Under the pieces are notes generated by a model, which did no database searches, was not told the DNA's origin, and saw only the letters and a list, made by a program, of their open reading frames with translations. 64,000 bases of DNA from Deltaproteobacteria bacterium (GTDB lineage Bacteria > Desulfobacterota > Desulfarculia > Adiutricales > Adiutricaceae). The stretch lies in assembly GCA_031264145.1 (NCBI GenBank), contig JAISEK010000076.1, forward strand, positions 7,843 through 71,842, given 5' to 3'. A program made the position numbers and the translations under genes. Shown here in pieces: positions 14,016 to 49,601 of the stretch; positions within the stretch are counted from its first letter, which is position 1; the number at the start of each line of letters is the position of its first letter.

Positions 14016-15248
14016 ATGGCCCAAAAAAACGATCTGTTAGTGGCCTTGGACGTCGGGACCACCAAGATATGCTGCCTGGTGGCCACGGTAAACGAGGGCG
14101 GCGGCATTGACATCAAGGGCCTGGGCGTGGCCCCGTCCAGCGGCCTTTCCCGGGGCCGGGTCATCAACATAAACGACACGGTGAAGGCCATCAGGAAGGC
14201 CGTCGACGACGCCGCCGACATGTCTGGCTTCGACATCGACTCGGCCTACGTGGGCATCGCCGGCGAGCACATAAACGGCCGGAAGGTCCAGGGATCGGTC
14301 GCCATCCGCAACGGGACGGTGGGCCGGGACGACATGGAGAGGGCCATCAAGGGGGCCATGGTCATGCAGGTGCCCTCCGACTGCGAGATCCTCACCAGGG
14401 TGCCCCTGGAGTTCCACATCGACGACCGGGTCGGCATCGTCGACCCCATCGGCATGGGCGGGACCAGGCTGGAGGTCTTCGTCCACGCCTTCACCGTCTC
14501 CTCCAACGCCCTAAGAGACCTGGCCCGGTGCGTCATGGACGCCGGCTTGAACGTGGACGACATATTCCTGGAGTCCGTGGCCTCGGCCGAGTCGGTCCTG
14601 ACCCCGGCCGAGAAGCAGCAGGGAGTGGTCCTGATAGACATAGGCGGGGGCACCAGCGACCTGGCCGTCTTCGCCAACGGGGCCATCCACCACATCTTCG
14701 AGGTGGGCATGGGCGGTGACGCCCTCTCGCACGACCTGGCCACGGGCCTGAACATCTCCCTGGAGACGGCCGAGATCCTGAAGCTCTCCCACGGCTGCTG
14801 CCACGAGGGCCTCGTGGACGAGGACTACGAGATAGAGGTCCCCAGCCTCGACGGCCTGAACTCCGTCAACATAGGCGTCAGCAGCGTCTGCCAGATCCTC
14901 CGCAAGAGGGTCGAGGAGCTCTTCGGCTATCTCTCCAACAATCTGACCCAGAGCGGCTTCGACGACGTGGTCCGCAACGTGGTCCTGACCGGCGGCACGG
15001 CTCTCCTCAAGGGCCTCCCGGAGATGGGGCTGGAGTACTTCAACCGCCAGATCCGGGTCGGCTACCCCAGCTACGTGGGCGGGCTGGCCGAGACGGTGGC
15101 CAACCCCATGTACTCGACCGTGGTCGGGCTCCTGCTCTACGGGCCCCAGGAGCGAGGCGACCCCTCCCTGCCGCTCACGGGATCCACCGAGCACGGCGCG
15201 GGGTCCCTGGGACGCCTGTTCGGCAGGATAAAGCAGATGTTCGGCTGA
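14016..15248 (+). CDS. ftsA: cell division protein FtsA (actin-like ATPase)
   Basis: Motifs LVALDVGTTKICCLV and VLIDIGGGTSDLAVF. RBS GGGAGGAG upstream. Confidence 0.93.
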   Translation: MAQKNDLLVALDVGTTKICCLVATVNEGGGIDIKGLGVAPSSGLSRGRVININDTVKAIRKAVDDAADMSGFDIDSAYVGIAGEHINGRKVQGSVAIRNGTVGRDDMERAIKGAMVMQVPSDCEILTRVPLEFHIDDRVGIVDPIGMGGTRLEVFVHAFTVSSNALRDLARCVMDAGLNVDDIFLESVASAESVLTPAEKQQGVVLIDIGGGTSDLAVFANGAIHHIFEVGMGGDALSHDLATGLNISLETAEILKLSHGCCHEGLVDEDYEIEVPSLDGLNSVNIGVSSVCQILRKRVEELFGYLSNNLTQSGFDDVVRNVVLTGGTALLKGLPEMGLEYFNRQIRVGYPSYVGGLAETVANPMYSTVVGLLLYGPQERGDPSLPLTGSTEHGAGSLGRLFGRIKQMFG

Positions 15249-15599: not shown

Positions 15600-16997
15600 A
15601 TGACTGACTCGATAAGGACGGCGACGGATCCGCGCAAGGCTCTCTGCCAGATCAGGGTCTTCGGCATCGGCGGCTGCGGCAACAACGCCATCAACCACAT
15701 GGTCTCGGCCGGCATGTCCGGCCCGACCCTGATCGCGGCCAACACCGACGTGGCCGACCTTGAGCGCTGCCTTGCCCCCGTCAAGATCCAGGTAGGGGCC
15801 GAGTGCACCGAGGGCCTGGGGGCCGGGGGGGATCCGGCCGTGGGCCGCGTCGCGGCCGAGGAGAGCATGGAGGAGATAGCCAAGCTCCTCTCCGACAGCC
15901 ACATAGTCTTCGTGACCGCCGGCCTGGGCGGCGGCACGGGCACCGGCGGGGCGCCGGCGGTGGTCGAGCACCTCTCAAAGCTCAAGAAGCCCCCCCTGAT
16001 CGTCTCGGTGGTCATCCTCCCGTTCGACTTCGAGCGGGATCGGCTGGGCAAGGCCCGTCCGGCCCAGGAGCTCCTCCTGAGGCACAGCAACTCCCTGATC
16101 TCCATCTCCAACGCCAAGCTCAAGGAGGCCCTGCCCGACGGCTCCCTCAAGCAGTGCCGGCAGCTGGCCGACGACGTGCTCTACCGGGCGGTCAGCTGCA
16201 TAACCGAGCTGATCCTCAAGCCGGGCGACATCCACCTGGACTTCGCCGACATCCGCAGCGCCCTGTCGGCCAAGGGCCGGGCCATCATGGGCTTCGGCCA
16301 GGCCAGCGGCGAGGGCCGGGGCCTCAGGGCCGTGGAGATGGCCATCACCTGCCCGCTGATGGAGAACCAGTCCATCCGGGGGGCCAAGTTCCTCCTGATA
16401 AACATCATCGCCGACGACATCAAGCTGTCCGAGTTCGAGGGCATAAACGACTACCTGGTCAAGCAGGCCTCGCCGGAGGTGAGGGTCTTCAGCGGCTACA
16501 GCCAGGACGAGAGCCTCCGGGAGGCCGGCACCCTCAAGGTGACGGTCATCGCCACCGGCCTTGACCAGGACGCCGGGCAGGCCAGGCCGGGGGAGGACGA
16601 GGAGGAGCCCATAACCCTCCTGGTCGAGCCCGAGCCCCAGATAGCCCTGGCCCCCGAGGCGATGGCCGTGAACCAGACGCCCCAGGCGATCGGGGTGGAC
16701 AGGCTGGGGCCCGGCCCGGAGATCCACGGGCCCCAGCAGGTGGGGCAAGGGGCCGCCCCGCAGAAGCGCGTGGTCCGCCTCTCCCCCGCCCCCATGGGCC
16801 GGCTGCCCCAGGCGGGCGGCCACAGCAAGTACGAGTCCAACAGCATCGCCGACCCCAGCGGCCGCGGCCTTTCCCGCAGCATGAGCCCCAGGACCCTGGT
16901 CCAGCCGGCCAGGCCGGCCATCGGGGCCGGGGCCCGGGGCGTGGAGGAGGCCAGATCGCCCCAGACCCCCTCCTTCATGATCAACAAGGCCGACTGA
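15600..16997 (+). CDS. ftsZ: cell division GTPase FtsZ
   Basis: GIGGCGNNA, GLGAGGDP, tubulin signature GGGTGTG and T7 loop HLDFADIRS. Long Pro/Gly-rich linker and C-terminal tail. Confidence 0.95.
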   Translation: MTDSIRTATDPRKALCQIRVFGIGGCGNNAINHMVSAGMSGPTLIAANTDVADLERCLAPVKIQVGAECTEGLGAGGDPAVGRVAAEESMEEIAKLLSDSHIVFVTAGLGGGTGTGGAPAVVEHLSKLKKPPLIVSVVILPFDFERDRLGKARPAQELLLRHSNSLISISNAKLKEALPDGSLKQCRQLADDVLYRAVSCITELILKPGDIHLDFADIRSALSAKGRAIMGFGQASGEGRGLRAVEMAITCPLMENQSIRGAKFLLINIIADDIKLSEFEGINDYLVKQASPEVRVFSGYSQDESLREAGTLKVTVIATGLDQDAGQARPGEDEEEPITLLVEPEPQIALAPEAMAVNQTPQAIGVDRLGPGPEIHGPQQVGQGAAPQKRVVRLSPAPMGRLPQAGGHSKYESNSIADPSGRGLSRSMSPRTLVQPARPAIGAGARGVEEARSPQTPSFMINKAD

Positions 16998-18695
16998 TTG
17001 GCGGGCCGCAAGGGGCCCTCCCGGGCCAGTGACCCCCTGGCCGCCTCCGAGACCGGGGCGGTCCGGCGCGAGAGGGGGGGGCGCCTCTCCGTGGCCCTGG
17101 TCTGGCCTGGCTCCTACCGCACCGGCATGTCGTCCCTGGGCTTTCTGTGGGTCTACCGCTTCCTGGCGGGGAGCCCGGCGGCCCTGGGCGAGCGCTTCTT
17201 CGCCCTTGACCCGCCCCAGGGCCGGCCCCTGTCCCTGGAGAGCCGCCGGCCCCTGGACGGCTTTGACCTCATAGCAGCCTCCCTGGTGCTGGAAAACGAC
17301 TACTGGCTCCTCCTGGACCTCCTGGACCGGGCCGGGATGCCCGTCGAGCGCCTGGGGCGGCGGGGCCGCGGGCCCATGGTCCTGGCCGGCGGCGTGGGCG
17401 TCTGGTCCAACCCCTGGCCGGTCATGCCCTTCGTGGATCTGGTCCTGGCCGGGGAGGGCGAGGCCCAATGGCCTAGGCTCCTGGAATGCTTCCGGGAACC
17501 AGGGTTTCCGGGCCTGGACCACGGGGAGAGGCTGGCCCTTATACAGGCGAGGGTGCCCGGGGCCCTGGCCCCCGGCCTCCTGCCCGAGGGCCCGGAAGGC
17601 TGGCGGCTGGCGGCCCCGGTGAGGCCGGCCTTCCTGGAATGGCCCTTCGGCCCAGGGGAGACGCCCCCCTCGTCGCCCATCCTGACCCCGCTGGCCGAGT
17701 TTCCCGAGACCACCCTGGTCGAGATCAGCCGCGGCTGCCCCTGGGGCTGCCGCTTCTGTCTGGCCGGCCACCTGTACCGTCCCCACCGGCCCTGGTCCCC
17801 TGGGGCCGTCCTCGGGGCGGCCGCCTCGATGAGGCCCAGGGGCGGCCGGGTGGGGCTGGTCAGCCCGGCCGTGGCCGACCACCCGGAGCTGGGGGCCATC
17901 TTCGAGGGCCTCCGGGAGCGGGAGGCCTCCGTCGGGGTCTCCTCGATGCGGCTGTCGGCCCTGACCGAGCCCCTGGCCAGGCGCCTCTCCCTGGCCGGCC
18001 TCAGGGCCCTGGCCGTGGCCCCCGAGGCCGGGAGCCAGGGCCTGAGGGACTCCATCAACAAGAACCTGTCCGAGCCGGAGATCCTGGAGTCGGTCAGGAT
18101 CCTTTCCGCCTTCGGCCTCCGGCGTCTGAAGCTCTACTTCATGATCGGCCTCCCCGGCGAGAGGCGCGAGGACCTCGAGGCCCTGGCGGAGCTGGTGGGC
18201 AGGATCTCCAGGGCGGTCAGGATAGGCCGCGGGGGGCCCCGCCTGGCCGTCTCGCTCTCTAACTTCACCCCCAAGCCCCACACGCCCCTCGAGGGCCGGC
18301 CGGTCCTGGACGAGGCCACCCTGGCGCGGAGCGGCCGGCTGGCCGAGGGCCTTCTCAGGAGGCTGGGCGGCCTCGAGGTCCGGCTGGACCCGCCCAAGTG
18401 GACCATCGTCCAGGCCCTCCTGGCCAGGGGCGGGCCGGAGAGCCACCTCCTGGTGAGGGCCCTGATGGCCGTCCGGGGCCGGCCCGGGCCGGCCCTCAGG
18501 CTCATAGGCTACGGGCCGGGCCATCCGGCCCACCGGCCCTGGGAGGGCCCCAGGCCCTGGCGGATCGTGGCCCCCAGGGCGGGCCTGCCCTATCTGGCCG
18601 AGGAGGAACGTCTGGCCGGCCAGGGCCGGCCCTCGCCGCCCTGCCCAGGCGGGGGTGGCTGCGGCCGCTGCCTGGCCTGCGCCGAAGCGGGGTAG
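16998..18695 (+). CDS. radical SAM protein (TIGR03960-like, B12-binding-like N-domain)
   Basis: CxxxCxxC cluster RGCPWGCRFC. The N-terminal VALVWPGSYRTGMSSLGFLWVY resembles the family as I recall it. Start codon uncertain (TTG 16998 or GTG 17029). Confidence 0.78.
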   Translation: MAGRKGPSRASDPLAASETGAVRRERGGRLSVALVWPGSYRTGMSSLGFLWVYRFLAGSPAALGERFFALDPPQGRPLSLESRRPLDGFDLIAASLVLENDYWLLLDLLDRAGMPVERLGRRGRGPMVLAGGVGVWSNPWPVMPFVDLVLAGEGEAQWPRLLECFREPGFPGLDHGERLALIQARVPGALAPGLLPEGPEGWRLAAPVRPAFLEWPFGPGETPPSSPILTPLAEFPETTLVEISRGCPWGCRFCLAGHLYRPHRPWSPGAVLGAAASMRPRGGRVGLVSPAVADHPELGAIFEGLREREASVGVSSMRLSALTEPLARRLSLAGLRALAVAPEAGSQGLRDSINKNLSEPEILESVRILSAFGLRRLKLYFMIGLPGERREDLEALAELVGRISRAVRIGRGGPRLAVSLSNFTPKPHTPLEGRPVLDEATLARSGRLAEGLLRRLGGLEVRLDPPKWTIVQALLARGGPESHLLVRALMAVRGRPGPALRLIGYGPGHPAHRPWEGPRPWRIVAPRAGLPYLAEEERLAGQGRPSPPCPGGGGCGRCLACAEAG

Positions 18696-19355: not shown

Positions 19356-20246
19356 CGTTTTTTGCAAATCATTTCGACAGTCAGTATATCACCAAATGAT
19401 TTCAGAACGTCTCATCTTTGCGAGTCCCAGGCGGTACCAGATCGATGTTTTTCTGACAGGCCAAACTCTTTTTAATGGCCTGGTGCCCGTGACGCATAAG
19501 GAGTGCTTACTTATAGCTTGAGCTTTCAGGGGCTACAGCAAGGAGTATCATCCTGATCATCTCAGATCGTCATCGGCATTCTTGTCCAGATTTTTCTTCT
19601 TAGGCCAAATTTTACTTGCCGTCCGGTCGTTTTCCGTTCATCATGCGGTACGTCTACTCCTGCATGCATGTGAATGGAGACAGGACATATGGGTGGGGAC
19701 ACGGTTTGTCGGGGAATGCCGTCACCATATCCTTGCTCATATTTGCTCGGCGTCAAGTCTGACCCGCGCCTTGCGATTGAGCCCTTGGCGACTTTGTCGT
19801 CTGTCAGTATCGTAAGCAAAGATATGTTGCCATCCTCCAAAATTCTGATGTTCATCTGGAAGCAGTATCCAGGAGCCCATGTCTCACGTCGGCCTCTTGC
19901 CCTTAATCTCGCTTGTCGCCGTCTGAAGCGTGGAAACGCCAACGACGTTTCCGGCCACGGCGAAGACTTGGCGTTATTGGCTCTTTCCCCTGTTCGCTAG
20001 ACTATGGGCTCTTGACCGTATCCTGGACAATACCTATAATATCTTGGATAGGAAGGGACATCATGGCGATAAACACCGCTATGTCTCGGGTCCGCTTGGT
20101 CGATTGAGCGAAAATCGCCTCCTGGCCAGACGGGCAGGTGGCTACAGTTGTGCTTTGGGATCTTTTGGCCCTTCCAATGGGATGGGAGGAATGCGTCTGT
20201 TCCCTTGACCTTGACTGAAATCAAGGTGTTTCCCTGTCAAGATACC

Positions 20247-21410
20247 ATGAAACTACGGCAGCTTCACATCAAAGGCTTCAAATCCATCGATGGCGATTTG
20301 GGACAGCTCGTTCCCTTTGAGGATGTCACCGTTTTATTGGGAGCCAATGGGTCCGGTAAGAGCAACTTGCTTTCCTTCATTGAGATGTCACGATCTCTGG
20401 CCAGGCAAGAGTTGGGGGAGTTCGTGGCGAAGCAGGGTGTCAGCCGGCTTCTTTATTATGGACCTCAAAATACAGATGACATATCTTTCATCGCCTCATT
20501 TGATGACGGAGGCATCAGCAGATATGAAGTAACTCTCAAGCGCGGCCTGCCTGACGGGCTTTCTGTGGGCTCTGAGAGAATTGGCTTTGGCCAGTACCAC
20601 CGTGTTGGGGAAAACGTGCCGGCGACATTGCCTCAAGATGAATATGGGGCGTCTGTCCTGGCTGAGAGCTATTATCTGCCTAAAGGTCAAAGAGGTGAAT
20701 CAACTCTTGCTGATGACGAAAACGAAACTGGCCGGCTTATTTATGACTTTTTGTCACGCATTCGTATATATCAATTTAATGACACATCGGAAACCGCCAA
20801 AATAAGGTACCGCAACTATGTGGACGATGCTAAGTATTTACGCCATGACGCTTCCAATTTGGCGGCTTTTTTAAAGATGCTGAAGGATAACTCCGCCTAT
20901 AAAAAATATTACAACCGTATCGTCAGACATATTCAGCGTGTCATGCCCCAATTTAAGGATTTTGATTTTGAACCCATTCCTGGAAACCAAGAACATGTCC
21001 GCCTAAATTGGAAGGATTCCTTCGGTAGTGGTTATTTGTTCGATCCGCACCAGATATCCGATGGATCTTTGCGTTTCATGGCCTTGGCGACATTGTCGTT
21101 GCAGCCCCCAGATTTATTGCCCAGACTCATTGTCCTTGACGAGCCGGAATTGGGACTCCATCCGGCAGCCATCACGGAACTGGGTGGACTTGTCAGAGCC
21201 GCCGCCAGGAATACTCAAGTGATCCTGTGCACTCAATCCACCCGTCTGATTGACGAGTTTGACCTCCAAAACTTGGTAATAGTCGAGCGCGACCGCATGA
21301 GACACTGTTCCATATTCAAAACGCTCAATGCGGAACAGTTTGGAGACTGGCTGGCCCGCTACAGTCTCTCCGAACTTTGGGAAAAAAACGTGATTGGCGG
21401 CCAGCCATGA
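20247..21410 (+). CDS. SMC/RecF/OLD-like ABC-type ATPase (AAA_15/AAA_21-like)
   Basis: MKLRQLHIKGFKSI start. Walker A LLGANGSGKSN; signature-like ISDGSLRFMALA; Walker B LIVLDEPELGLHP; H-loop-like ILCTQS. About 200 aa are inserted between Walker A and the signature. Lower GC than flanking genes. Confidence 0.85.
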   Translation: MKLRQLHIKGFKSIDGDLGQLVPFEDVTVLLGANGSGKSNLLSFIEMSRSLARQELGEFVAKQGVSRLLYYGPQNTDDISFIASFDDGGISRYEVTLKRGLPDGLSVGSERIGFGQYHRVGENVPATLPQDEYGASVLAESYYLPKGQRGESTLADDENETGRLIYDFLSRIRIYQFNDTSETAKIRYRNYVDDAKYLRHDASNLAAFLKMLKDNSAYKKYYNRIVRHIQRVMPQFKDFDFEPIPGNQEHVRLNWKDSFGSGYLFDPHQISDGSLRFMALATLSLQPPDLLPRLIVLDEPELGLHPAAITELGGLVRAAARNTQVILCTQSTRLIDEFDLQNLVIVERDRMRHCSIFKTLNAEQFGDWLARYSLSELWEKNVIGGQP

Positions 21411-22099
21411 TCCGCTTGCATATTACCGCTGAAGGGAAGACAGAGCTAAATTTCGCCAAAAAAGTACTTGCCCCGTATCTAGCCGGCCACAACGTTTTTG
21501 CTGATGAGCGTTGTGTCCTGACAGGCAAGAACAGACGCGCGGCCCAGGAGCATAGAGGGGGGCTGCTGAGCTATGGGAAGGCCAAAAAGGATATTTTGGC
21601 CTGGTTGAAGGAAGATCACGGAAATGAGTGTCGCTTTACCACCATGTTCGATTTGTATGCGCTGCCAGATGACTTTCCAGGCTACGATGAAGCCAGATTT
21701 CAAGTTGATCCATACAAAAAAGTCGAAATCATCGAAAATTTTATGGCGAGCGACATAAATGACAGTCGCTTTATTCCTTATGTCCAGTTGCATGAATTCG
21801 AGGCGCTAATTCTTGCTGACCCGCGACAACTTGAGTGGGAATATCTGGAACATGACAAGCCTATCCTAAACCTGATATCCATGGTCGGCGGCCAGAATCC
21901 TGAGTTCATCAATGACGGCAAGGATACAGCCCCATCCAAGCGTATTCTCAAAGAAATACCTGAATATAACAAAGCTACCGCTGGCCCGGCGGTAGCGGAG
22001 AAAATTGGTTTGCCAGTGCTTCGCGCCAAATGCGGCCATTTTCACGATTGGCTGACCGTCTTGGAAAATCTTGGAAATACGCAATCTCGGTGCCGATAA
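21407..22099 (+). CDS. DUF4276-like / Toprim-like putative nuclease partner of the upstream ATPase
   Basis: ATGA overlap with the ATPase stop (21407-21410). MIRLHITAEGKTELNF (EGxxE), TTMFDLYALP and QLHEFEALILADP. Assigned to DUF4276 from memory of the family pattern, not from a search. Confidence 0.7.
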   Translation: MIRLHITAEGKTELNFAKKVLAPYLAGHNVFADERCVLTGKNRRAAQEHRGGLLSYGKAKKDILAWLKEDHGNECRFTTMFDLYALPDDFPGYDEARFQVDPYKKVEIIENFMASDINDSRFIPYVQLHEFEALILADPRQLEWEYLEHDKPILNLISMVGGQNPEFINDGKDTAPSKRILKEIPEYNKATAGPAVAEKIGLPVLRAKCGHFHDWLTVLENLGNTQSRCR

Positions 22100-22346
22100 G
22101 CGCGCCAACATTTTCGACAGGATAGTTTCGACTGAGGCTGCAGGCACCTTCCCACAGGACGACAGATTCCCCTAGGCAGGAATTGCGTTTCCGTTTTCTG
22201 GGTGCCATGTGGCCTTCAAGGCAGGGGCCTTTCCAAGGCGTGAATCTGTCCGCGGAACAATTTCGCGACGCAGGGAAAGATCCCGGCCTGGAAATCTATG
22301 CCCCATGGGGGAGATCGGCTTCAGTTTGGGCGGGGAAAGTGATAAT

Positions 22347-23246
22347 ATGGCCCCGTCGGTGGGCCTCCTGGGGATTGGGCGCCTGGGCCGGAGGGCCCTG
22401 GCGAGGGCCGCCGCAGTGCCCGGCCTGGCCCTGATCGCCCTGGGTGCCGAGCCGGCCCGCCAGGGCCAGTCAGGCGAGGGTATCGGCCCCGGGGAGCGGT
22501 CCCGGCTGCTTGAGGCCCTCTCGGGCCTGGATTTCGCCGTCCTGGTCTGCTCCCTGGACTCGGCCGCCGACCGAAGGCTCGTCGATTCCGTCCTGGGGTG
22601 CCTGCCAGCCCCCGACAGGGCGCCCATGATGGTCTCCGTCGTCTCCCGGGGCAGCCTCTCCCAGTCCGGCTGGCGGCCCGTCTTCCGAAGGCTCCTGGCG
22701 GCCAGCCGGGCGGCTGTGGATCTCTGGAGCCGACAGGGCCTCCTGGTCCAGGGCGGCCGGGTGTTCGAGGCCAGGGAGCGCCTGGCCGATCTGGTGTCCG
22801 GCCTGGCCGAGGGCCTGGCCGAGGTGCTGGCCCGGCCCATGGAGATGGTCCTGGACCCGTCCGACCTCAGGGCCGCGCTGGCCTTTCCCGGCCGCCTGGC
22901 CTGGGGGCTGGGCCAGGCCAGCGGCCCCGACAGGGCCCGCAGGGCCCTGGACCGGGCCCTGGCCTCGGGGGCCTATCCGCCAGAGAACCTCCTGGGGGCC
23001 CAGTGCCTCCTGGTCCTGACCATAGGCGACCCCGGCCTCAGGCTGGGCGACTTCGAGTACCTCAACCGGCGTCTGGCCGCCCTGGCCGGCGAGAGGGCCA
23101 GGCTCTTCGCCGGCCTGGCCCACGACGCGGCCCTGGCACAGGCCGGCGGGCTCAAGGTGTTTTTCCTGGCCACCGGCCTCCCCGGCCAGGGTACGGGCGA
23201 CCGGGCCGCCCTGTTCAGGGCCGGGCTCAGGGAATGGAGAATCTGA
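22347..23246 (+). CDS. divergent FtsZ/tubulin-like paralogue lacking the GGGTGTG nucleotide-binding loop
   Basis: By-eye alignment to the window's own FtsZ. GIGRLGRRA matches GIGGCGNNA; MMVSVVSRG matches LIVSVVILP; LDPSDLRAAL matches LDFADIRSAL. GLGQASGPDRARRAL...LLVLTIGDPGLRLGDFEYL...LKVFFLATGL matches GFGQASGEGRGLRAV...LLINIIADDIKLSEFEGI...LKVTVIATGL. Alternative start 22209. Confidence 0.7.
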   Translation: MAPSVGLLGIGRLGRRALARAAAVPGLALIALGAEPARQGQSGEGIGPGERSRLLEALSGLDFAVLVCSLDSAADRRLVDSVLGCLPAPDRAPMMVSVVSRGSLSQSGWRPVFRRLLAASRAAVDLWSRQGLLVQGGRVFEARERLADLVSGLAEGLAEVLARPMEMVLDPSDLRAALAFPGRLAWGLGQASGPDRARRALDRALASGAYPPENLLGAQCLLVLTIGDPGLRLGDFEYLNRRLAALAGERARLFAGLAHDAALAQAGGLKVFFLATGLPGQGTGDRAALFRAGLREWRI

Positions 23247-24259
23247 TGGCTTTTCACGCCCCCGGGTCATGGGAAGGACGGGCCGGGAGCCTGATGCTCG
23301 TAGGCTGGGAGGGGAACGGCCTCCAGGAGCCCCTGGGGCTCTTGGAGGATTTCGGCCCCGCCGGGCTGGTCTTCTTCAGGCGCAACTACCCGCCCGGCGG
23401 CGGTCCCGAGCTGAGGGAACAGCTGGCGAGGATTGGGGCCAGGGCCCTGGAGGTCCTGGGGCGGCCCGTCCTCTTGGCCCTCGATGGCGAGGGGGGGCTG
23501 GTCAAGAGGCTCCCTCCGCCCCACGTCCAGTTGCCGGCGGCCCCCATGGCGGCCCTGATGGGCCCAGGTAGGATTTTCGAGATGGCCCTGGAGGCCGGCC
23601 GGGAGATGGCCCTTCTGGGCTTCAACCTAAACCTGGCCCCGGTCCTGGACCTCCAGGTCGAGGGCGGCATAATGGCCGGCCGTTCCTACGGTCCCGACCC
23701 GGGCCTGGTGGCCGGGTGCGCCAGGGCCTTCATGGAGGGCTTCCGGGCGGCGGGCGTCCTGACCTGCGCCAAGCATTTTCCAGGCCTGGGGGCGGCCATG
23801 GAGGATCCCCACTCGGTCCTGCCGTCCATAGGCCTGGGCCCGGAGGCCATGGCGCCGCATCTCAGGCCCTTCGGGGAGCTGGCCGCGTCCGGGCTGCCCA
23901 TGGTCATGACCAGCCACTGCCTCTACCCCGGCCTGGGGCTGGACCGCCCGGCCACCTTCCACGGGGCCGCGGCGGCCATGCTGCGGGGCCGCCTTTCATT
24001 CGACGGCCCCATCCTCTCGGACGATCTGGAGATGGGCGCCGTGGCCGGGAACCTCCCGGTCGGCGAGGCGGCCGTCCAGGCCGTCCAGGCCGGGCACGAC
24101 CTGGTCCTGGTCTGCCGTCGCCGCCGGGCGATAGAGGAGGCCCACGGGGCGCTGGCGCTGGCCCTGGCCTCCGGGCGCCTCGACGCCTCGCGCCAGCTGG
24201 CCTCCCTTGGCCGGCTTGGCCGTCTTCTGGGCCCCGGCGCGACGGGCGACGACCTCTGA
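23234..24259 (+). CDS. nagZ: beta-N-acetylhexosaminidase NagZ (GH3)
   Basis: Motifs GFNLNLAPVLDL, AKHFPGLGAAMEDPHSVLP and ILSDDLEMGAV. A second in-frame ATG at 23246 overlaps the upstream stop (TGATG). Confidence 0.85.
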   Translation: MENLMAFHAPGSWEGRAGSLMLVGWEGNGLQEPLGLLEDFGPAGLVFFRRNYPPGGGPELREQLARIGARALEVLGRPVLLALDGEGGLVKRLPPPHVQLPAAPMAALMGPGRIFEMALEAGREMALLGFNLNLAPVLDLQVEGGIMAGRSYGPDPGLVAGCARAFMEGFRAAGVLTCAKHFPGLGAAMEDPHSVLPSIGLGPEAMAPHLRPFGELAASGLPMVMTSHCLYPGLGLDRPATFHGAAAAMLRGRLSFDGPILSDDLEMGAVAGNLPVGEAAVQAVQAGHDLVLVCRRRRAIEEAHGALALALASGRLDASRQLASLGRLGRLLGPGATGDDL

Positions 24260-24297: not shown

Positions 24298-24762
24298 GTG
24301 GCCAACCAGCACACCTACCTGCTAGAGCCAGGGCTCTGGACCATGGAGGGCATCTACCGCGACCGGGAGGATTCCCCCCACCGGCAGACGGGCCAGATCC
24401 TGGTGGTCCACGCCCCCGGGCTCTGGACCATCGAGAGCCAGCTGTCCATCTCCGGCCAGGACGCCAGGGACTTCGAGACCCGCTACGACGTGTCCCCCAT
24501 GCCCCAGGGCCGCTCCTTCACCGAGTGGAAGTCCATCTCCAACGGGCCGGAGCCGATATTCGGCCTCTTCGTGCTGGTGGAGGACGCCATCATGATGCCC
24601 TGGGAGTCCGAGTCGGGCATCTACTGGGGCCAGGAGGTCCTGTCCAGGGTCGCCCCGGACGAGTACCGGTGCCGCGGCTTTGCCTTCATAAAGCGAGAAA
24701 AGGTCTCCTCCTGGGCCGTCCGGATGGCCAGGGCCGACCAGGGCCAGGCGATGGGGGAATGA
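24298..24762 (+). CDS. hypothetical protein (~154 aa)
   Basis: GTG start inside ORF 23716..24762. Ordinary amino-acid composition from VANQHTYLLEPGLWTMEGIY onward. No family recognised. Confidence 0.45.
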   Translation: MANQHTYLLEPGLWTMEGIYRDREDSPHRQTGQILVVHAPGLWTIESQLSISGQDARDFETRYDVSPMPQGRSFTEWKSISNGPEPIFGLFVLVEDAIMMPWESESGIYWGQEVLSRVAPDEYRCRGFAFIKREKVSSWAVRMARADQGQAMGE

Positions 24763-25676: not shown

Positions 25677-26873
25677 ATGTCCCGGACCCTGGAGATAGCC
25701 GTCCTGGGCTCGACCGGCTCCATCGGCCGAGCCGTCCTCTCCCTGGCGGCCGCCTTCCCCGACCGGCTGAGGGTGGTGGCCCTCTCCGCCCACCGGAACG
25801 TGGCCCTCCTGGCCGGACAGATCCGCCGGTTCGGTCCGGCCGTCGTCTCCGTGGGCAGCCAGGCCCTGAGAGGCGAGCTGCTGGGCCTCATGGGCAGCCC
25901 GGCCGGCCGCCCCGAGGTCCTGGTCGGCCCGGAGGGCCTCGCTGACCTGGCCGCCCAGAGCGGGGCCGGGACGGTCGTCTCGGCCGTGGTGGGGGCGGCC
26001 GGCCTCGTCCCGACCTGGGCCGCCCTGTCCAGGGGCCTGCGGGTGGCCCTGGCCAACAAGGAGAGCCTGGTCCTGGCAGGCGATCTGCTGATGGCCCTGG
26101 CCGGGGACCGGCTGAGCCCGGTAGACAGCGAGCACTCGGCCATCTTCCAGGCCCTGGGGGGGCGGCTCAGGGACCCCGGCCTCCGCCGCCTGGTCCTGAC
26201 GGCCTCCGGCGGCCCCTTCCGCGGCCGGTCCCTGGAGGAGCTTTCCAGGGTCACGGCCGCCCAGGCCCTGGCCCACCCCACCTGGCGCATGGGCCCCAAG
26301 ATTTCCTGCGACAGCGCCACCATGATGAACAAGGGCCTGGAGGTCATCGAGGCCCACCATCTCTTTGGGCTGGGCTATGACCAGATAGAGGTCCTGGTCC
26401 ACCCCGGCAGCCACGTCCACTCCCTGGCCGGCTTCAGTGATGGCTCCGTCCTGGCCCAGATGGGGCCTGCTGACATGCGGCTGGCCATCGCCTACGCCCT
26501 TTCCCATCCTGGCCGCTGGCCCCTGGCGGACCTGGCCGGGAAGGACCCCGACTTCGAGGTCTTCGCCGACGGCTCCATCCCCCCCTCGCTCATCTTCGAG
26601 GCTCCCGACCGTAAGGCCTTCAGGGCCTTGGCCTTGGCCGAGGCGGCCGGCCGGGCTGGCGGGACGGCCCCGGCCATCCTCAACGGGGCCAACGAGGTCG
26701 CCGTGGCCGCCTTCCTGGGGGGCCGTCTTTCCTTCACGGGCATCGCCGGCCTGGTGGAGGCGACCCTGGCCGCCATCCCGGCCGGGAGCCTGGGCAGCCT
26801 GGCCGACGCCCTGGCCGCCGACGCCGAGGCCAGGCGGGTGGCCGAGGCCCTGGCCGCGAGGTGCGGGTTCTGA
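25677..26873 (+). CDS. dxr: 1-deoxy-D-xylulose 5-phosphate reductoisomerase
   Basis: Motifs LGSTGSIG, LANKESLV, DSEHSAIFQ, MNKGLEVIEA. Canonical cdsA-dxr linkage. Confidence 0.95.
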   Translation: MSRTLEIAVLGSTGSIGRAVLSLAAAFPDRLRVVALSAHRNVALLAGQIRRFGPAVVSVGSQALRGELLGLMGSPAGRPEVLVGPEGLADLAAQSGAGTVVSAVVGAAGLVPTWAALSRGLRVALANKESLVLAGDLLMALAGDRLSPVDSEHSAIFQALGGRLRDPGLRRLVLTASGGPFRGRSLEELSRVTAAQALAHPTWRMGPKISCDSATMMNKGLEVIEAHHLFGLGYDQIEVLVHPGSHVHSLAGFSDGSVLAQMGPADMRLAIAYALSHPGRWPLADLAGKDPDFEVFADGSIPPSLIFEAPDRKAFRALALAEAAGRAGGTAPAILNGANEVAVAAFLGGRLSFTGIAGLVEATLAAIPAGSLGSLADALAADAEARRVAEALAARCGF

Positions 26874-26972
26874 GGGACCGGCCCTGCCCGGCAAATGGGG
26901 CCGGCGACGCCAGGCCCGCGGCGACCGCCTGGTGGCCGCTGGTAGTTGACCACTGGCTGGCCGGAACCTCCA

Positions 26973-27092
26973 TAGTGCCTTGTTTTTCTTGTTTGACTGG
27001 TGCCGGCATCTCGGCTTAATCTCCGTAGCCAACGTTGGCTCAGAGTAAAGATAGCCATTTTTGCTAGATATTCTATGAAAAGAAAGTCTTTA
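26973..27092 (+). mobile_element. MITE-like repeat, copy E (diverged)
   Basis: TAGTGCCTTGTTTTTCTTGTTTGACTGGTG... matches the left end of copy C (42902..). Right end GAAAAGAAAGTCTT is degenerate. Confidence 0.45.
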
Positions 27093-27696
27093 GAGTAGAC
27101 TGGTTTTATGAAATTATCTTTCCAGCAATAATAAGACTGCAAATAAATTCTTTAGGATATCTATATTCATGTACATTTTTATTAACTTTTGATTAAATAT
27201 CTTAAAATAATATGCAAAATAATTAAAAATTGTTATGCTAGAATATAATTATATTTAAATATAAAACATAGTAAAATATTATTGTTACGCTCACTATAGC
27301 ATGTAATTTAACGGATCATTCGTGGACTATATCTAACTTTTATCTCGCACCTTGGTCGAGTTGTCCAGCAGGCAAGATTTTGTTAACGAAACATAGATGC
27401 GACCAAAAATTGGAAAATGAGAAAAGGCGACATGGAAATCCTGCTTGCCTTCGCATCCAAGTATGGGTATTATGAGTATTATATGGGCGACAGCCCTCCA
27501 GTAGACAAGGTCGTGGCCTTAGTGTGGCCTCGATGCCGACGGGCAAGGCCACGGTCCGGCGTTAGTCGACCTTTGGTGGCTTGGGGCAGGGTGCGGGATC
27601 GCCGCGGACTCGGAACTTGCCTGACTCTCGCGTTGCCCTAAACTGGGCTGGGTCATGCTGGAAGCCATCGCTGGCCCACCGGGTGATGGCCCGCTG

Positions 27697-27752
27697 AAGG
27701 TGCGTCACCTGGCCTGGGCCCAAAAAGGTGCGTCACCTGGCCTGGGCCCAAA
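27697..27752. repeat. perfect 28 bp tandem duplication (AAGGTGCGTCACCTGGCCTGGGCCCAAA x2)
   Basis: Read directly: 27697-27724 equals 27725-27752. Confidence 0.95.
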
Positions 27753-28043
27753 GGAGTGACCGCGGCATATGGAACTGCTGTCCATCTAAAAACCTAAAAA
27801 TGACCAATCCTTATACCTAATTATCAAGGCTAAATGCAGCAGAACCCAAGGAGCTCGGTTTTTACTTGCCCGTCAACATTAGAAAAGATATCTCCTCATA
27901 AAAATTATCAAGCCAATGGAGGTGTTGGACGATGACGACTTGACATATCTTAAATTAATAATATTATGGATTATGATATATATTTTTTTTATAAAATATC
28001 ATAAAACTATTGCCCTTGCAAGGAAAATTATAGGGAGAATGTG

Positions 28044-28463
28044 ATGTATAAAATCTTTATCGCTATTTTAGCTGTTACTTTTTTATTAAATATTAGTAAT
28101 AATATATATGCAGAAGATAATCAATTTACTACTGGAATAGATCATTGTTTAAATAATGCAACTGAATATGTAGAATTTACTGCTTGTTACTCAGAAGCAG
28201 CCAGTTATTGGGATAATTTTTTGAATGAAAATTATCAGAAAGTAGTAGATCTATGTAATAATGATAATGGCAATGGAGAGCAATGTTTAAAAATTCTTCG
28301 TAATGCTCAACGGAGCTGGTTAGCTTATAGAGATGGTATGATAAAGACAATTTATGAAATTATGGGTAATGGCCAAGTAACAGAAATGCAGGCTGCTGAA
28401 TTTCTATATTCATCAACGCAAGATCAAGCACTAATTTTAGGAACATTAGCAAGTTTGCCATAA
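28044..28463 (+). CDS. DUF1311 / LprI-like (lysozyme-inhibitor family) exported protein
   Basis: Signal peptide MYKIFIAILAVTFLLNISNNIYA. C-terminal L..AQRSWLAYRDGM pattern of DUF1311 (recalled). RBS GGGAGA upstream. Extremely AT-rich codons in a GC-rich genome. Confidence 0.65.
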   Translation: MYKIFIAILAVTFLLNISNNIYAEDNQFTTGIDHCLNNATEYVEFTACYSEAASYWDNFLNENYQKVVDLCNNDNGNGEQCLKILRNAQRSWLAYRDGMIKTIYEIMGNGQVTEMQAAEFLYSSTQDQALILGTLASLP

Positions 28464-28593
28464 ATAAAACTAAATTTTTAGTTATTTATGAAATTAATAT
28501 TTATATAGTTATTAATGTAGTGCTAATAGTTTACTAGCGCTACATTTTATTAGATTAATGCCAATAAATTGCTCAAAATTATTCTAGAGGAAA

Positions 28594-28706
28594 CTAGCAT
28601 CTTGTCTTTCTAGATTTGGCAGGTGAAGATACCTGTTCTTCGTCCTCATGGCGCAGTACCCAGGACCAATCGGCACTGCGCTGTTTTCGAAGAAAGGATG
28701 GTGGTT
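28594..28706 (+). mobile_element. MITE-like repeat, copy D (diverged, full length)
   Basis: CTAGCATCTTGTCTTTCTAGATTTGGCAGGTGAAGATACCT aligns with copy C CTAGTACCTTGTTTTTCTTGATTTGTCTGGTGAAGATACCT. Similar length, with a degenerate right end. Confidence 0.5.
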
Positions 28707-28896
28707 TAGTGGCCTTTTTTAAAATATAAATGATATCAATAAGTTATATAATTGAGAAATAGCGGACGGAGAAATAGGCGGGCGGAGCAGGCCCCGTGCT
28801 CTCTGGACCGGGTGACGGAGTACCCCGGCGGCGGCGGAGCTACGGTAACGTGACCCAAACGCACATGGGGCCTTCTTTGAATTTTCTCCTGGACCT

Positions 28897-28941
28897 CAAA
28901 AACAAAAAGCCCCCTCGGTATGCGCAATCTCAGCGGGGGCT
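28897..28941 (-). terminator. possible Rho-independent terminator for the minus-strand ABC-F/small-ORF unit
   Basis: Minus strand reads AGCCCCC-20 nt-GGGGGCT followed by TTTTTGTTTTT. The long loop weakens the call. Confidence 0.35.
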
Positions 28942-28960
28942 GTTGACGGTTGCTAAGGCT

Positions 28961-29176
28961 TCAGTATTTTTTCCTCTTGTCCAGCAACCGCTGCAGGTCC
29001 TCGATGGTCTCGCAGGGACCATCGTCTTGGCTTGGCTTTCTGGACTCGGCCTTGTCGCCTTCCCCCTCAAAGAGCCGCATGAAGGCGGCCAGGCCCACGG
29101 GACCAAGCTCCTTGCGCAAGGCCTCGATACCCCTTTTGCGTAGGGTCTCGGTGTCGCTCCAGTCAACGATGTCCAT
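28961..29176 (-). CDS. small hypothetical protein (71 aa), antitoxin-like family LGPVG..F..FE.G.GD
   Basis: RBS AGGAGA lies 5 nt before ATG 29176. MDIVDWSDTETLRKRGIEALRKELGPVGLAAFMRLFEGEGD... resembles a widespread small-protein family (recollection only). Confidence 0.45.
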   Translation of the reverse strand: MDIVDWSDTETLRKRGIEALRKELGPVGLAAFMRLFEGEGDKAESRKPSQDDGPCETIEDLQRLLDKRKKY

Positions 29177-29343
29177 GGTTCTCCTCATCACACACCTCCA
29201 TTGCTTCCCGGACACCCTTATTATACGATGCAGCGGCCCCCGACGCCAGACTTCCCAGGCCCCCTCTTGACCGACCCCAAAACATCCAGTTGTCCAGCTT
29301 CCGGCCTGAGATTATGCCGGCCCTCGGCGGGGGGCGGGCCCCC

Positions 29344-34511: not shown

Positions 34512-34552
34512 TCGACTATATTCTCCTTTTTGTCATAGAAGTTAGAGATTAT

Positions 34553-34580
34553 TGAATCAAGAAAAAGATACTCATCTGAA
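34553..34580 (-). mobile_element. MITE-like repeat, end fragment F
   Basis: AATCAAGAAAAAGATACT matches the right end AATCAAGAAAAACAAGATACT of copy B. Lies 40 bp from the nrdD start. Confidence 0.4.
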
Positions 34581-34722
34581 TCTGGCGGAAACGGGGCCGC
34601 CTGGCCTTGAAAAGGCCAATGGCTGGCCCGTGATCGACGCGAAAGAGCCAGGGGTCGGAGAGCTACAGGGCCGGAGCCTGGCCAGGCACCAGGGACGGGC
34701 CACAAGGCCAGGGTCAGATGCT

Positions 34723-34842
34723 GGACCCGCTGTTTTTTTGGAATGTCTGGTAAAGTCGGCTAAATCGCCGTTTAGCCAACAGTGGATTAACTAGATTGGT
34801 CTGAGGTCCCTACATCTGCCAAATCAAGAAAAACATGGTACC
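34723..34842 (-). mobile_element. MITE-like repeat, copy A
   Basis: ...TTTTTTTGGAATGTCTGGTAAAGTCGGCT...AAATCAAGAAAAACATGGTACC is colinear with copy B. Confidence 0.6.
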
Positions 34843-41001: not shown

Positions 41002-41035
<34 letters not shown>

Positions 41036-49471: not shown

Positions 49472-49515
49472 ACACTCTTTGCTGGCCGGGTTTCCGGCCA
49501 AGCCGAGGGCATCCT

Positions 49516-49601
<86 letters not shown>

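What the first reader, a model, noticed from the sequence alone, without database searches (positions are those of the whole stretch)
22347..23246. Degenerate FtsZ paralogue: tubulin signature loop lost, T7-like loop and C-terminal domain retained
This ~300 aa protein aligns by eye with the bona fide FtsZ 5 kb upstream. Over the C-terminal ~108 residues (LDPSDLRAAL...GLGQASGPDRARRAL...LKVFFLATGL versus LDFADIRSAL...GFGQASGEGRGLRAV...LKVTVIATGL) the alignment needs a single 1-aa indel. Where FtsZ has TAGLGGGTGTGGAP, the paralogue has VCSLDSAADRRLVD. GLGAGGDP is replaced by GEGIGPGE. It also lacks the long linker and C-terminal tail. A protein that can present a T7-like surface to a neighbouring FtsZ subunit, yet probably cannot bind GTP itself, could act as a filament capper or modulator. 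I am not aware of such a pseudo-GTPase FtsZ paralogue being characterised.
Basis: partly seen in the sequence, partly recalled or inferred. Interest (0 to 1): 0.7.

Follow-up and report, generated by a model that had tools for sequence, protein, structure and literature searches.

The report
Nucleotide-pocket-dead FtsZ paralogue in termite-gut bacteria
This gene encodes a selectively maintained copy of the cell-division protein FtsZ that has lost every GTP-binding loop but keeps the face FtsZ uses to activate its neighbour, so it probably regulates FtsZ filaments; it occurs only in a small group of termite-gut bacteria.

Summary
Window 22347..23246 (+) encodes a 299-aa protein homologous to FtsZ over the whole globular core (BLASTP against the window's FtsZ E=4e-23; family profile against PDB FtsZ E=1.6e-23; AlphaFold2 model pLDDT 86.8, TM 0.73-0.76 to FtsZ structures).

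- **Degeneration:** nucleotide loops T1-T6 and the H7 Asn are lost in all three known lineages, and G105 is Asp in all three. T7 residues D209 and D212 and most C-terminal-domain positions are kept. Of FtsZ's strongly conserved columns, 1 of 32 survive in the N-terminal half and 13 of 21 in T7 plus the C-terminal domain.
- **Not a pseudogene:** dN/dS is 0.25 (p=6e-6) against a 94% orthologue, and the stop codon overlaps the nagZ start (TGATG).
- **Distribution:** only three 50%-identity clusters among 1.84 billion representatives. All come from Adiutricaceae MAGs or unclassified contigs with the same gene order. The gene always lies between the ftsZ-adjacent radical-SAM gene and nagZ. It was lost in a sister clade.
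- **Rate:** it evolves fast (31-34% identity between lineages, against 45-71% for neighbouring genes).

The mechanism is inferred, not shown. The protein probably docks by its T7 face onto the nucleotide face of FtsZ and cannot be extended. The closest analogue is plant ARC3. I rate it a new variant of a known kind, of moderate interest.

The parts
22347..23246 (+). FtsZ-like pseudo-GTPase gene (299 aa plus stop); the finding itself
   Evidence: dN/dS is 0.25 against L001.
22371..22394 (+). Remnant of the T1 loop (GIGRLGRR, where FtsZ has GIGGCGNN)
   Evidence: G20 and N24 equivalents are lost. The other two lineages also differ from FtsZ at these positions.
22473..22496 (+). Remnant of the T3 region (GEGIGPGE, where FtsZ has GLGAGGDP), followed by a deletion of most of the helix after T3
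22545..22586 (+). Remnant of the T4 tubulin signature (VCSLDSAADRRLVD, where FtsZ has TAGLGGGTGTGGAP). D71 replaces G105 in all three lineages.
22833..22874 (+). T7-like loop (RPMEMVLDPSDLRA). D170 and D173 correspond to FtsZ D209 and D212 and are invariant; the N207 position is Val.
22875..23183 (+). FtsZ C-terminal domain, the best-conserved part
   Evidence: Pfam PF12327 covers residues 186-278. Identity to the organism's own FtsZ is 28-39%, and 13 of 21 strongly conserved FtsZ columns are kept in all three lineages.
23184..23243 (+). Short family-specific tail ending in (E/N)WR(I/R). It replaces the FtsZ linker and C-terminal peptide.
   Evidence: W297 and R298 are invariant in alignment A3. 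A helix is predicted at 286-296 with low confidence. Amphipathicity is inconsistent across the lineages.
23244..23248 (+). TGATG: the stop codon of the FtsZ-like gene overlaps the nagZ start by 1 nt, suggesting translational coupling
   Evidence: The same 1-nt overlap occurs in L001 and a 4-nt overlap in L003.
23246..24259 (+). nagZ-like GH3 beta-N-acetylglucosaminidase, the conserved downstream partner
   Evidence: Pfam PF00933, E=7e-43. Synteny is shown.
22291..22346 (+). About 56 nt upstream of the start codon that are 100% identical to the orthologous locus; possibly a 5' UTR or regulatory element
15600..16997 (+). Bona fide ftsZ (465 aa) with an intact GTPase domain, linker and C-terminal peptide. 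It is the only one in the part of the window examined (ORFs of at least 80 aa in 14-28 kb, at least 250 aa in 1-14 kb; 28-64 kb not screened).
   Evidence: Pfam Tubulin 125.6 bits plus FtsZ_C 69.2 bits. TIGR00065 scores 292.7.
14016..15248 (+). ftsA; no second copy was seen in the part of the window examined
   Evidence: It sits in the position of the FtsA-domain genes in the syntenic loci L002 and L004 and is 50-55% identical to them. It was not scanned against Pfam itself.
16998..18695 (+). YgiQ-type radical-SAM gene, the conserved upstream neighbour
   Evidence: Pfam PF19864 plus PF04055. Synteny is shown.
20148..22099 (+). Low-GC (49%) two-gene island inserted between the radical-SAM gene and the FtsZ-like gene. 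It is not part of the ancestral arrangement.
   Evidence: GC profile. PADLOC HEC-01A E=1e-111 and HEC-01B E=2e-75. The island is absent from L002 and L004.

Best explanation
**What it is (shown).** The gene encodes a lineage-specific FtsZ paralogue. It arose in an ancestor of part of the Adiutricaceae (Desulfobacterota of lower-termite guts), next to the division gene cluster.
- It keeps the two-domain FtsZ fold.
- It has lost every element that binds GTP, so it should be a pseudo-GTPase.
- Its nucleotide ('top') face is no longer FtsZ-like.
- It keeps the 'bottom' face: the two catalytic T7 aspartates and the C-terminal domain, including the S9 LRL loop.
- It has no linker or C-terminal peptide, so it should not bind FtsA-type anchors. 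This last point is inferred.

**How it probably works (inferred).** It docks with its T7 face onto the GTP-bearing top face of genuine FtsZ. FtsZ filaments grow at the bottom end. Docking would therefore happen at the shrinking, nucleotide-exposed filament end or on free GTP-FtsZ monomers. The paralogue cannot itself accept a further subunit. It would act as an end cap and/or a sequestering GTPase-activating partner that tunes Z-ring turnover. It is made together with NagZ from one translationally coupled message.

The identity part is near certain. The mechanism is a hypothesis.
For: **Homology and fold.**
- BLASTP against the window's FtsZ gives E=4e-23.
- The family profile aligns to the whole FtsZ core of PDB chains at E=1.6e-23.
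- The AlphaFold2 model has pLDDT 86.8 and pTM 0.86.
- Foldseek top hits are all FtsZ, with TM 0.73-0.76.
- With a family-only alignment the N-terminal domain still folds as a beta-alpha-beta domain, with pLDDT about 80.

**Asymmetric degeneration.**
- T1, T2, T3, T4, T5, T6 and the H7 Asn are lost in all three lineages. G105 is Asp in all three.
- Of 32 strongly conserved FtsZ columns in the N-terminal domain plus H7, 1 is kept in all three lineages and 15 in none.
- Of 21 such columns in T7 plus the C-terminal domain, 13 are kept in all three, including D209 and D212.

**A functional gene.**
- dN/dS is 0.25 with 28 synonymous and 18 non-synonymous changes, binomial p=6e-6. This is similar to the neighbouring nagZ at 0.31.
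- The ORF is intact in three lineages whose neighbouring proteins are only 45-71% identical.

**Context.**
- The gene always lies at radical-SAM / X / nagZ, downstream of ftsA-ftsZ.
- Its stop codon overlaps the nagZ start codon.

**Filament polarity.** FtsZ elongates from the end where the C-terminal domain is exposed (PMC11157280, citing Du et al. 2018).

**Precedent.** The FtsZ-like domain of ARC3 is probably not a GTPase, yet it binds FtsZ and inhibits its assembly (PMC3494859).
Against: - There is no direct evidence of any interaction with FtsZ, of expression, or of absent GTP binding.
- N207 of the T7 loop is replaced by Val or Ser, so GTPase-activating competence is uncertain.
- The family evolves very fast: 31-34% identity between lineages and 8-15% identity to FtsZ in H7.
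- It was lost in the L013/L015/L016 clade. It is therefore dispensable, and its interface with the far more slowly evolving FtsZ may not be preserved.
- The tight coupling to nagZ could point to a role unrelated to FtsZ filaments.
- The confident model used an FtsZ-dominated alignment. With only family members, the C-terminal domain is poorly predicted.
Confidence: 0.4

Rival explanations
1. The protein is a neofunctionalised scaffold that no longer touches FtsZ. The FtsZ fold would have been recruited as a partner or regulator of NagZ and cell-wall recycling, or of another envelope process. The conserved C-terminal domain and the WR tail would then serve a new partner.
For: - The adjacency to nagZ is invariant, and the stop and start codons overlap.
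- There are family-specific invariant residues that FtsZ lacks: Trp in GxxxWG, the FFLA(T/S)G strand, and the C-terminal (E/N)WR motif.
- The protein has diverged strongly from FtsZ in H7 and the N-terminal domain.
Against: - nagZ sits at the same place, directly after the radical-SAM gene, in relatives that lack the paralogue (L013, L016). The adjacency may therefore only reflect where the duplicate landed.
- The residues kept from FtsZ are exactly the catalytic T7 aspartates. A NagZ partner would have no evident need for them.
Confidence: 0.25
2. The gene is a decaying duplicate. It would be one of several FtsZ copies produced in genomes under reductive or relaxed evolution, still open by chance and without a maintained function.
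For: - Adiutricaceae MAGs have low coding density, 69-78% (supplement of PMC11481507).
- Their ftsZ region carries tandem FtsZ and FtsA duplicates and fragments.
- The paralogue evolves about twice as fast as its neighbours.
- It was lost in one clade.
Against: - dN/dS is 0.25, significantly below 1 (p=6e-6) and like that of neighbouring functional genes.
- All five sequences found have intact ORFs of similar length, across three deeply separated lineages.
- The degeneration is patterned rather than uniform, with 13 of 21 C-terminal key columns kept.
- Where the gene is absent, no remnant remains.
Confidence: 0.1
3. The protein is a self-assembling, nucleotide-independent or non-canonically nucleotide-dependent filament former. 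It would be a new cytoskeletal element in its own right.
For: - The complete FtsZ fold is predicted.
- The N-terminal domain is also under purifying selection (dN/dS 0.30).
- The window protein has a GxGxxG-like string and a weak match to an NAD-binding domain (E=0.098).
Against: - The GxGxxG string is not conserved in the other two lineages.
- All top-face and nucleotide loops are different in each lineage and carry deletions in T3-H2 and T5.
- The N-terminal domain is only 22-23% identical within the family. That is hard to reconcile with a conserved homotypic interface.
Confidence: 0.1

Closest known systems
Canonical bacterial FtsZ (TIGR00065; PF00091 plus PF12327)
   Same: - It has the same two-domain fold and collinear secondary structure.
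- The T7 residues D209 and D212 and the glycine/alanine framework of the C-terminal domain are conserved.
- It is encoded at the end of the dcw cluster.
- It derives from FtsZ. The closest FtsZ sequences include those of the same clade.
   Different: - There is no GGGTG(S/T)G signature, and T1-T6 are lost.
- N207 is lost.
- The T3-H2 and T5 regions carry deletions.
- It has no linker and no C-terminal peptide.
- PF00091 is not detected, and TIGR00065 scores 24 bits against a cut-off of 295.
ARC3 (plant chloroplast division inhibitor with an FtsZ-like domain)
   Same: It carries an FtsZ-derived domain that is probably not a functional GTPase. ARC3 binds FtsZ and inhibits or remodels its assembly (PMC3494859; PMC12232670). 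This is the best functional analogy.
   Different: - ARC3 is eukaryotic and has a middle domain and a MORN domain.
- It works with MinD, MinE and ARC6.
- The protein here is a bare FtsZ core of 299 aa of independent bacterial origin.
- Sequence relatedness to ARC3 was not tested.
Truncated FtsZ paralogues of Hyphomicrobiales (FtsZ1 and FtsZ3 of Agrobacterium)
   Same: - They are extra FtsZ copies that lack the linker and C-terminal peptide.
- They are proposed to tune division, and FtsZ1 overexpression inhibits division (bioRxiv 10.1101/2025.09.29.679267).
   Different: Those paralogues are described as FtsZ GTPase duplications. Here the GTPase motifs are gone and the C-terminal half is what is conserved.
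Engineered top-face or bottom-face FtsZ mutants, and the peptide capper MciZ
   Same: The concept is the same: an FtsZ with only one competent longitudinal face adds to one filament end and blocks it. The kinetic polarity is described in PMC11157280, citing Du et al. 2018. The MciZ comparison comes from my own knowledge.
   Different: Those are laboratory mutants or an unrelated small peptide. This would be a naturally evolved, genomically encoded one-faced FtsZ.
FtsZ-like 1 and 2 families (Makarova and Koonin 2010)
   Same: They are divergent members of the FtsZ-tubulin superfamily found by sequence analysis.
   Different: Those families were found through, and retain, the GGGTG(S/T)G loop. 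Family 1 is associated with vWA, OmpA and GTPase genes (PMC2875224). None of this applies here.

Membership tests
FtsZ/tubulin superfamily (fold level) | Two-domain fold: an N-terminal Rossmann-like domain, the H7 core helix, and a C-terminal domain | tested here: met
   - The profile aligns over the full core of PDB FtsZ chains at E=1.6e-23.
- The AlphaFold2 model has pLDDT 86.8.
- Foldseek gives TM 0.73-0.76 to FtsZ structures.
Canonical FtsZ (TIGR00065 equivalog) | Tubulin signature GGGTG(S/T)G (T4 loop) | tested here: not met
   The loop reads SLDSAADRR in the window protein, KLDSPETRL in P0008 and EADAGE in P0009. G105 is Asp in all three.
Canonical FtsZ (TIGR00065 equivalog) | The other nucleotide-contact loops: T1 GGGxxN, T2 NTD, T3 GAG, T5 PFxFEG, T6 Asn165 and the H7 Asn/Asp | tested here: not met
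   Only 1 of 32 strongly conserved columns in the N-terminal domain plus H7 is kept in all three lineages (motif blocks).
Canonical FtsZ (TIGR00065 equivalog) | T7 synergy loop NxDxxD | tested here: inconclusive
   D209 and D212 are invariant. N207 is replaced by Val or Ser. Whether the loop can still activate GTP hydrolysis cannot be told from sequence.
Canonical FtsZ (TIGR00065 equivalog) | Disordered linker plus a conserved C-terminal peptide that binds FtsA or ZipA | tested here: not met
   The protein ends 20 residues after the last strand, in ...GLREWRI. The window's FtsZ has a roughly 140-aa linker and ends in PSFMINKAD.
Canonical FtsZ (TIGR00065 equivalog) | Curated model scores (TIGR00065; PF00091; PF12327) | tested here: not met
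   - TIGR00065 scores 24.1 against a cut-off of 295.2.
- PF00091 gives no hit.
- PF12327 scores 27.1 against a cut-off of 27.
Canonical FtsZ (TIGR00065 equivalog) | GTP binding, GTP hydrolysis and GTP-dependent polymerisation | not testable with these tools
   This needs purified protein.
ARC3-like FtsZ-derived inhibitors | An FtsZ-like domain without GTPase motifs, combined with a middle domain and a MORN domain; binds FtsZ | tested here: not met
   No domain other than FtsZ_C is detected, and the protein consists of little beyond the FtsZ core. FtsZ binding was not testable. The resemblance is functional and analogical only.
Truncated GTPase-active FtsZ paralogues (FtsZ1 of Agrobacterium and similar) | Retained GTPase domain with loss of the linker and C-terminal peptide | tested here: not met
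   The linker and C-terminal peptide are lost, which meets that part. The GTPase motifs are also lost.

The most novel reading that the evidence does not exclude
This would be a naturally evolved 'one-faced' FtsZ: a bacterial pseudo-GTPase paralogue with only its T7 (bottom) face still competent. It would bind the nucleotide face of genuine FtsZ at the shrinking filament end or on free monomers, trigger or block GTP turnover there, and so set Z-ring treadmilling. That would make it the first FtsZ-derived regulator of FtsZ in bacteria, and convergent with plant ARC3. It would have arisen in a symbiont lineage that is also experimenting with tandem ftsZ and ftsA duplicates.
Probability: 0.3. Interest if true: 0.75.

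Novelty: new variant of a known kind. Interest (0 to 1): 0.55.

Why it matters
FtsZ regulators known in bacteria (MinC, SulA, MciZ, the Zap proteins and others) are unrelated to FtsZ itself. A paralogue that keeps only the activating face of FtsZ would be a ready-made natural tool for probing filament polarity, end capping and GTPase activation in trans. It would also be an independent bacterial parallel to chloroplast ARC3. It shows how an essential cytoskeletal GTPase can turn into a pseudo-enzyme after duplication, much as pseudokinases and pseudo-GTPases have in eukaryotes. Against this, the family is tiny, fast-evolving, dispensable in a sister clade, and confined to uncultured termite-gut Adiutricaceae. 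Its general importance is therefore limited unless biochemistry shows a clean mechanism.

Tried and rejected
1. **Word-indexed protein searches.** Searches with the protein and with the family profile found only the protein itself and P0009. The exhaustive HMMER search was needed to find P0008 and P0009.
2. **Short low-ranking hits.** P0014, P0018, P0019, P0023, P0026 and P0028 were checked as possible further degenerate paralogues. Four (P0014, P0018, P0019, P0023) contain the T4 signature region, intact in three and GKGG in the internally deleted P0019. The other two, P0026 and P0028, begin after it. None carries the degenerate motifs of this family.
3. **Remnants where the gene is absent.** I searched the radical-SAM/nagZ intergenic gaps of relatives without the gene (L013, L014, L015, L016). 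Nothing scored better than E=0.13. The gaps of L014 (44% GC) and L015 (40% GC) are low-GC non-coding DNA, repetitive in L015. The hits were judged to be chance.
4. **NAD or Rossmann-type ligand binding.** The window protein has a GxGxxG string and a weak 2-Hacid_dh_C hit (E=0.098). I rejected this because the string is not conserved in the other lineages.
5. **C-terminal tail as a membrane-targeting helix.** The hydrophobic moment is 0.73 in the window protein but only 0.47 and 0.56 in the other lineages. This is inconclusive.
6. **Longer N-terminal extension from GTG 22209.** Rejected, because that codon is GCG in the orthologue.
7. **AlphaFold2 with family members only.** The N-terminal domain reaches pLDDT about 80, but the C-terminal domain is poorly predicted. 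This control is only partly informative.
8. **Literature.** Searching 'FtsZ' with 'pseudo-GTPase' found 0 papers, and searching 'Adiutrix' with 'FtsZ' found 1, with one passing mention of each term.
9. **Papers and taxa not available.** PMC3694706 is not held. 'Deltaproteobacteria bacterium Smac51' is not in the taxonomy copy.
Full report
**1. What is in the sequence**

Window 22347..23246 (+) is an open reading frame of 299 codons. The ATG at 22347 has a purine-rich GGGGAAAG stretch 7-14 nt upstream. A possible longer start at GTG 22209 is GCG in the orthologous locus. The 56 nt before the ATG are 100% identical between the two loci. The stop codon TGA (23244-23246) shares its last base with the ATG of the next gene, a GH3 NagZ-type hydrolase (Pfam PF00933, E=7e-43). 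The protein is identical to NCBI MDR1110254.1, 'hypothetical protein' of a MAG labelled Deltaproteobacteria bacterium.

**2.

- BLASTP against the window's FtsZ (15600..16997) gives E=4e-23, with 31% identity over residues 91-278 and a single 1-aa gap in the C-terminal part.
- Without composition correction the alignment extends over residues 5-278 against FtsZ 18-321.
- A profile of the small family aligns over the entire globular core of FtsZ chains in the PDB (profile positions 23-309 against E. coli FtsZ residues 27-327, E=1.6e-23).
- Pfam detects only FtsZ_C, exactly at threshold (27.1 against 27 bits), and no Tubulin/FtsZ GTPase domain. The same is true of the two other family members.
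- TIGR00065 scores 24 bits against a cut-off of 295.
- An AlphaFold2 model built on a 69-row alignment has pLDDT 86.8 and pTM 0.86, with the full FtsZ secondary-structure order. Its best PDB matches are all FtsZ, with TM 0.73-0.76.
- With only the four family sequences as the alignment, the N-terminal domain is still predicted as the same beta-alpha-beta domain (pLDDT about 80). The C-terminal half is then poorly predicted.

**3. Anatomy of the degeneration**

I used a 70-sequence alignment numbered on E. coli FtsZ. Its core numbering was checked against known mutant positions.

The following elements are lost:

| Element | FtsZ | Paralogue lineages |
|---|---|---|
| T1 | GGGxxN | GRLGRR / GGWGLR / DSMGLA |
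| T2 | NTD | gone |
| T3 | GAG | gone; in the window protein most of the following helix is deleted |
| T4 | GGGTGTG | LDSAADR / LDSPETR / ADAGE |
| T5 | PFxFEG | gone, with a deletion |
| T6 | Asn165 | Ser or Gly |
| H7 | Asn186 | Ala or Val |

G105 is Asp in all three lineages.

In contrast, T7 keeps D209 and D212 in every member, although N207 becomes Val or Ser. The glycine/alanine framework of the C-terminal domain and the S9 'LRL' loop are also kept.

Counting the columns that are at least 85% conserved among 66 FtsZ sequences gives the following:

| Region | Strongly conserved FtsZ columns | Kept in all three lineages | Kept in none |
|---|---|---|---|
| N-terminal domain plus H7 | 32 | 1 | 15 |
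| T7 plus C-terminal domain | 21 | 13 | 3 |

Identity to the organism's own FtsZ is 17-23% in the N-terminal domain, 8-12% in H7, 39-44% in T7-H8 and 28-39% in the C-terminal domain.

The linker and C-terminal peptide of FtsZ are absent. The family instead has a short tail ending in (E/N)WR(I/R), plus invariant residues of its own: Trp in GxxxWG and the FFLA(T/S)G strand.

**4. It is a maintained gene, not a wreck**

A 94%-identical orthologue lies on a contig of another MAG (L001, GCA_031266425.1). Nei-Gojobori counting gives 28 synonymous and 18 non-synonymous differences. dN/dS is 0.25, and the binomial p against neutrality is 6e-6. The values are similar in all three thirds of the gene. 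They are also similar to the adjacent nagZ 5' part (0.31) and to the DUF4276 gene (0.22).

**5. Distribution and history**

An exhaustive HMMER scan of 1.84 billion representatives found 578 hits. Only two clusters besides the query score above ordinary FtsZ: P0008 (E=9e-24) and P0009 (E=1.5e-20). The other listed hits I inspected were ordinary FtsZ or fragments of it.

All members lie in the same place: ftsQ-ftsA-ftsZ(s), radical-SAM (YgiQ type), FtsZ-like, nagZ, a gene of about 155 aa, cdsA, dxr.

The supplement of PMC11481507 classifies three of the source MAGs:
- Ct408_bin86, the source of L004;
- Gx485_bin207, the source of L007;
- Gx481_bin175, the source of L001.

All three are Desulfobacterota; Desulfarculia; Adiutricales; Adiutricaceae. 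They come from hindguts of the lower termites Calcaritermes temnocephalus and Glyptotermes spp. Their coding densities are only 69-78%. The window's own MAG was not looked up. I assign it to the same family by its 92% DNA identity to L001.

Related contigs lack the gene:
- L013 and L016 have nagZ directly after the radical-SAM gene.
- L014 and L015 have low-GC non-coding gaps there, with no remnant.
- The complete genome Smac51 has a different downstream region.

A neighbour-joining tree of FtsA plus radical-SAM gives these groupings:
- {window, L013-L017 clade, L002, L004} at 100% bootstrap, excluding L014;
- the paralogue-free L013/L015/L016(/L017) clade at 100%;
- that clade as sister to the window lineage at 84%.

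The simplest history is one origin in the ancestor of this group and one later loss. In an FtsZ tree the three paralogue lineages form one long-branched group near the Adiutricaceae FtsZ sequences. That tree has no bootstrap support values.

The paralogues are only 31-34% identical to each other. Their neighbours FtsA, FtsZ, radical-SAM, NagZ, CdsA and Dxr are 45-71% identical. The gene is therefore fast-evolving yet constrained.

**6. Mechanism**

These points are shown:
- It has an FtsZ fold whose nucleotide pocket and top face are no longer FtsZ-like.
- Its bottom face retains the two aspartates that, in FtsZ, reach into the neighbour's GTP site.
- It has no C-terminal peptide.
- It is translationally coupled to nagZ.

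The rest is inferred. The protein can plausibly sit with its T7 face on the GTP face of real FtsZ, but it cannot accept another subunit on top of itself. FtsZ filaments elongate from the end where the C-terminal domain is exposed (PMC11157280, citing Du et al. 2018). Such a protein would therefore act at the nucleotide-exposed, shrinking end, or on free GTP-FtsZ. In the latter case it would mask the face a monomer needs in order to add to a filament. The outcome could be end capping, which would stabilise or block disassembly. It could equally be sequestration with trans-activation of GTP hydrolysis. Sequence cannot tell these apart.

Loss of N207, the rapid divergence and the loss in one clade all weaken the case. 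I put about 0.4 on direct action on FtsZ through the T7 face. I put more than 0.9 on 'a maintained FtsZ-derived pseudo-GTPase'.

The rivals are:
- a new role with NagZ or the cell envelope (0.25);
- a decaying duplicate (0.1);
- an autonomous, non-canonical filament former (0.1).

**7. Comparison with known systems**

It belongs to the FtsZ/tubulin superfamily by fold and descent. It fails the defining tests of canonical FtsZ: the signature motif, the other nucleotide loops, the C-terminal peptide and the curated model scores.
- **Truncated GTPase-active paralogues.** It differs from those of Hyphomicrobiales, which are described as GTPase duplications (bioRxiv 10.1101/2025.09.29.679267).
- **FtsZ-like 1 and 2 families.** It differs from these, which are defined by an intact GGGTG(S/T)G loop (PMC2875224).
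- **Earlier notes.** That same paper already remarks that some FtsZ paralogues lack key motifs and have unknown roles.
- **ARC3.** This is the closest functional analogue. It is a chloroplast protein whose FtsZ-like domain is probably not a GTPase, and it inhibits FtsZ assembly (PMC3494859). Later work is cited as reporting enhanced FtsZ2 GTPase activity (reference list of PMC12232670).
- **Bacterial counterpart.** My literature searches found none.

**8. Verdict**

The finding is real. The function remains a hypothesis. I rate the novelty as a new variant of a known kind. Interest is moderate at 0.55. It is an attractive natural 'one-faced FtsZ', but it is confined to a handful of uncultured termite-gut genomes and is dispensable in close relatives.

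Noticed in passing
window 20148-22099: A low-GC (49%, against about 70% in the flanks) two-gene island lies between the radical-SAM gene and the FtsZ-like gene. It encodes an AAA_21/AAA_15 ATPase and a DUF4276 protein, matching the PADLOC candidate defence system HEC-01 (HEC-01A E=1e-111, HEC-01B E=2e-75). In the orthologous locus L001 the ATPase gene is split into two ORFs. The island is absent from L002 and L004.
   Followed up: partly
L002 3771-7598; L004 867-7548; L015 2032-5799; L017 2817-5700: Related Adiutricaceae contigs carry tandem extra copies of division genes. These include two full FtsZ genes, one of which lacks the canonical C-terminal peptide. There are also N-terminal FtsZ fragments of 182 and 206 aa, and in L004 two FtsA genes that are 52% identical. 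The part of the window examined shows one ftsZ and one ftsA.
   Followed up: partly
window 15600-16997 (FtsZ residues about 388-405); C-termini of L002 FtsZ468, L004 FtsZ559, P0013 and P0017: A second conserved motif, K(R/K)V(V/I)R(L/V/M)...RLP, sits inside the FtsZ linker of this clade. It forms the very C-terminus of the FtsZ copies that lack the canonical peptide. It may be an additional partner-binding motif.
   Followed up: no
window 15600-16997: The genuine FtsZ is annotated 'hypothetical protein' in the NCBI record. It scores 292.7 bits on TIGR00065, just under the 295.2 cut-off.
   Followed up: yes
window 22291-22346: The 56 nt immediately upstream of the FtsZ-like start codon are 100% identical between the window and L001, although the coding region has 46 substitutions. 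This may be a conserved leader or regulatory element. I did not fold it or search it against Rfam at relaxed thresholds.
   Followed up: partly
window about 24300-24762 (+); L002 12245-12727; L004 12528-13001; L013 10620-11096: A gene of about 150-160 aa with no Pfam match lies between nagZ and cdsA in the window and in seven related Adiutricaceae loci (L002, L003, L004, L013, L014, L015, L016). I did not compare the sequences.
   Followed up: no
P0037 (670 aa, from the representative search): This protein consists of two tandem FtsZ-like cores in one chain. Both have altered signature loops (GGLGGGLCSGG and GGLGGGFGTGA). In the distance tree it was the nearest neighbour of the paralogue family.
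   Followed up: no
L015 7618-8047: The radical-SAM/nagZ intergenic gap in this relative is 40% GC. It is made of repeated units of roughly 60-70 nt, visible as repeated translated strings. It shows no similarity to the FtsZ-like gene.
   Followed up: partly
window 26000-30000, 34000-36000, 40000-42000, 48000-52000: There are further low-GC stretches (47-57%, against a background of 63-76%). They may be additional horizontally acquired islands.
   Followed up: no
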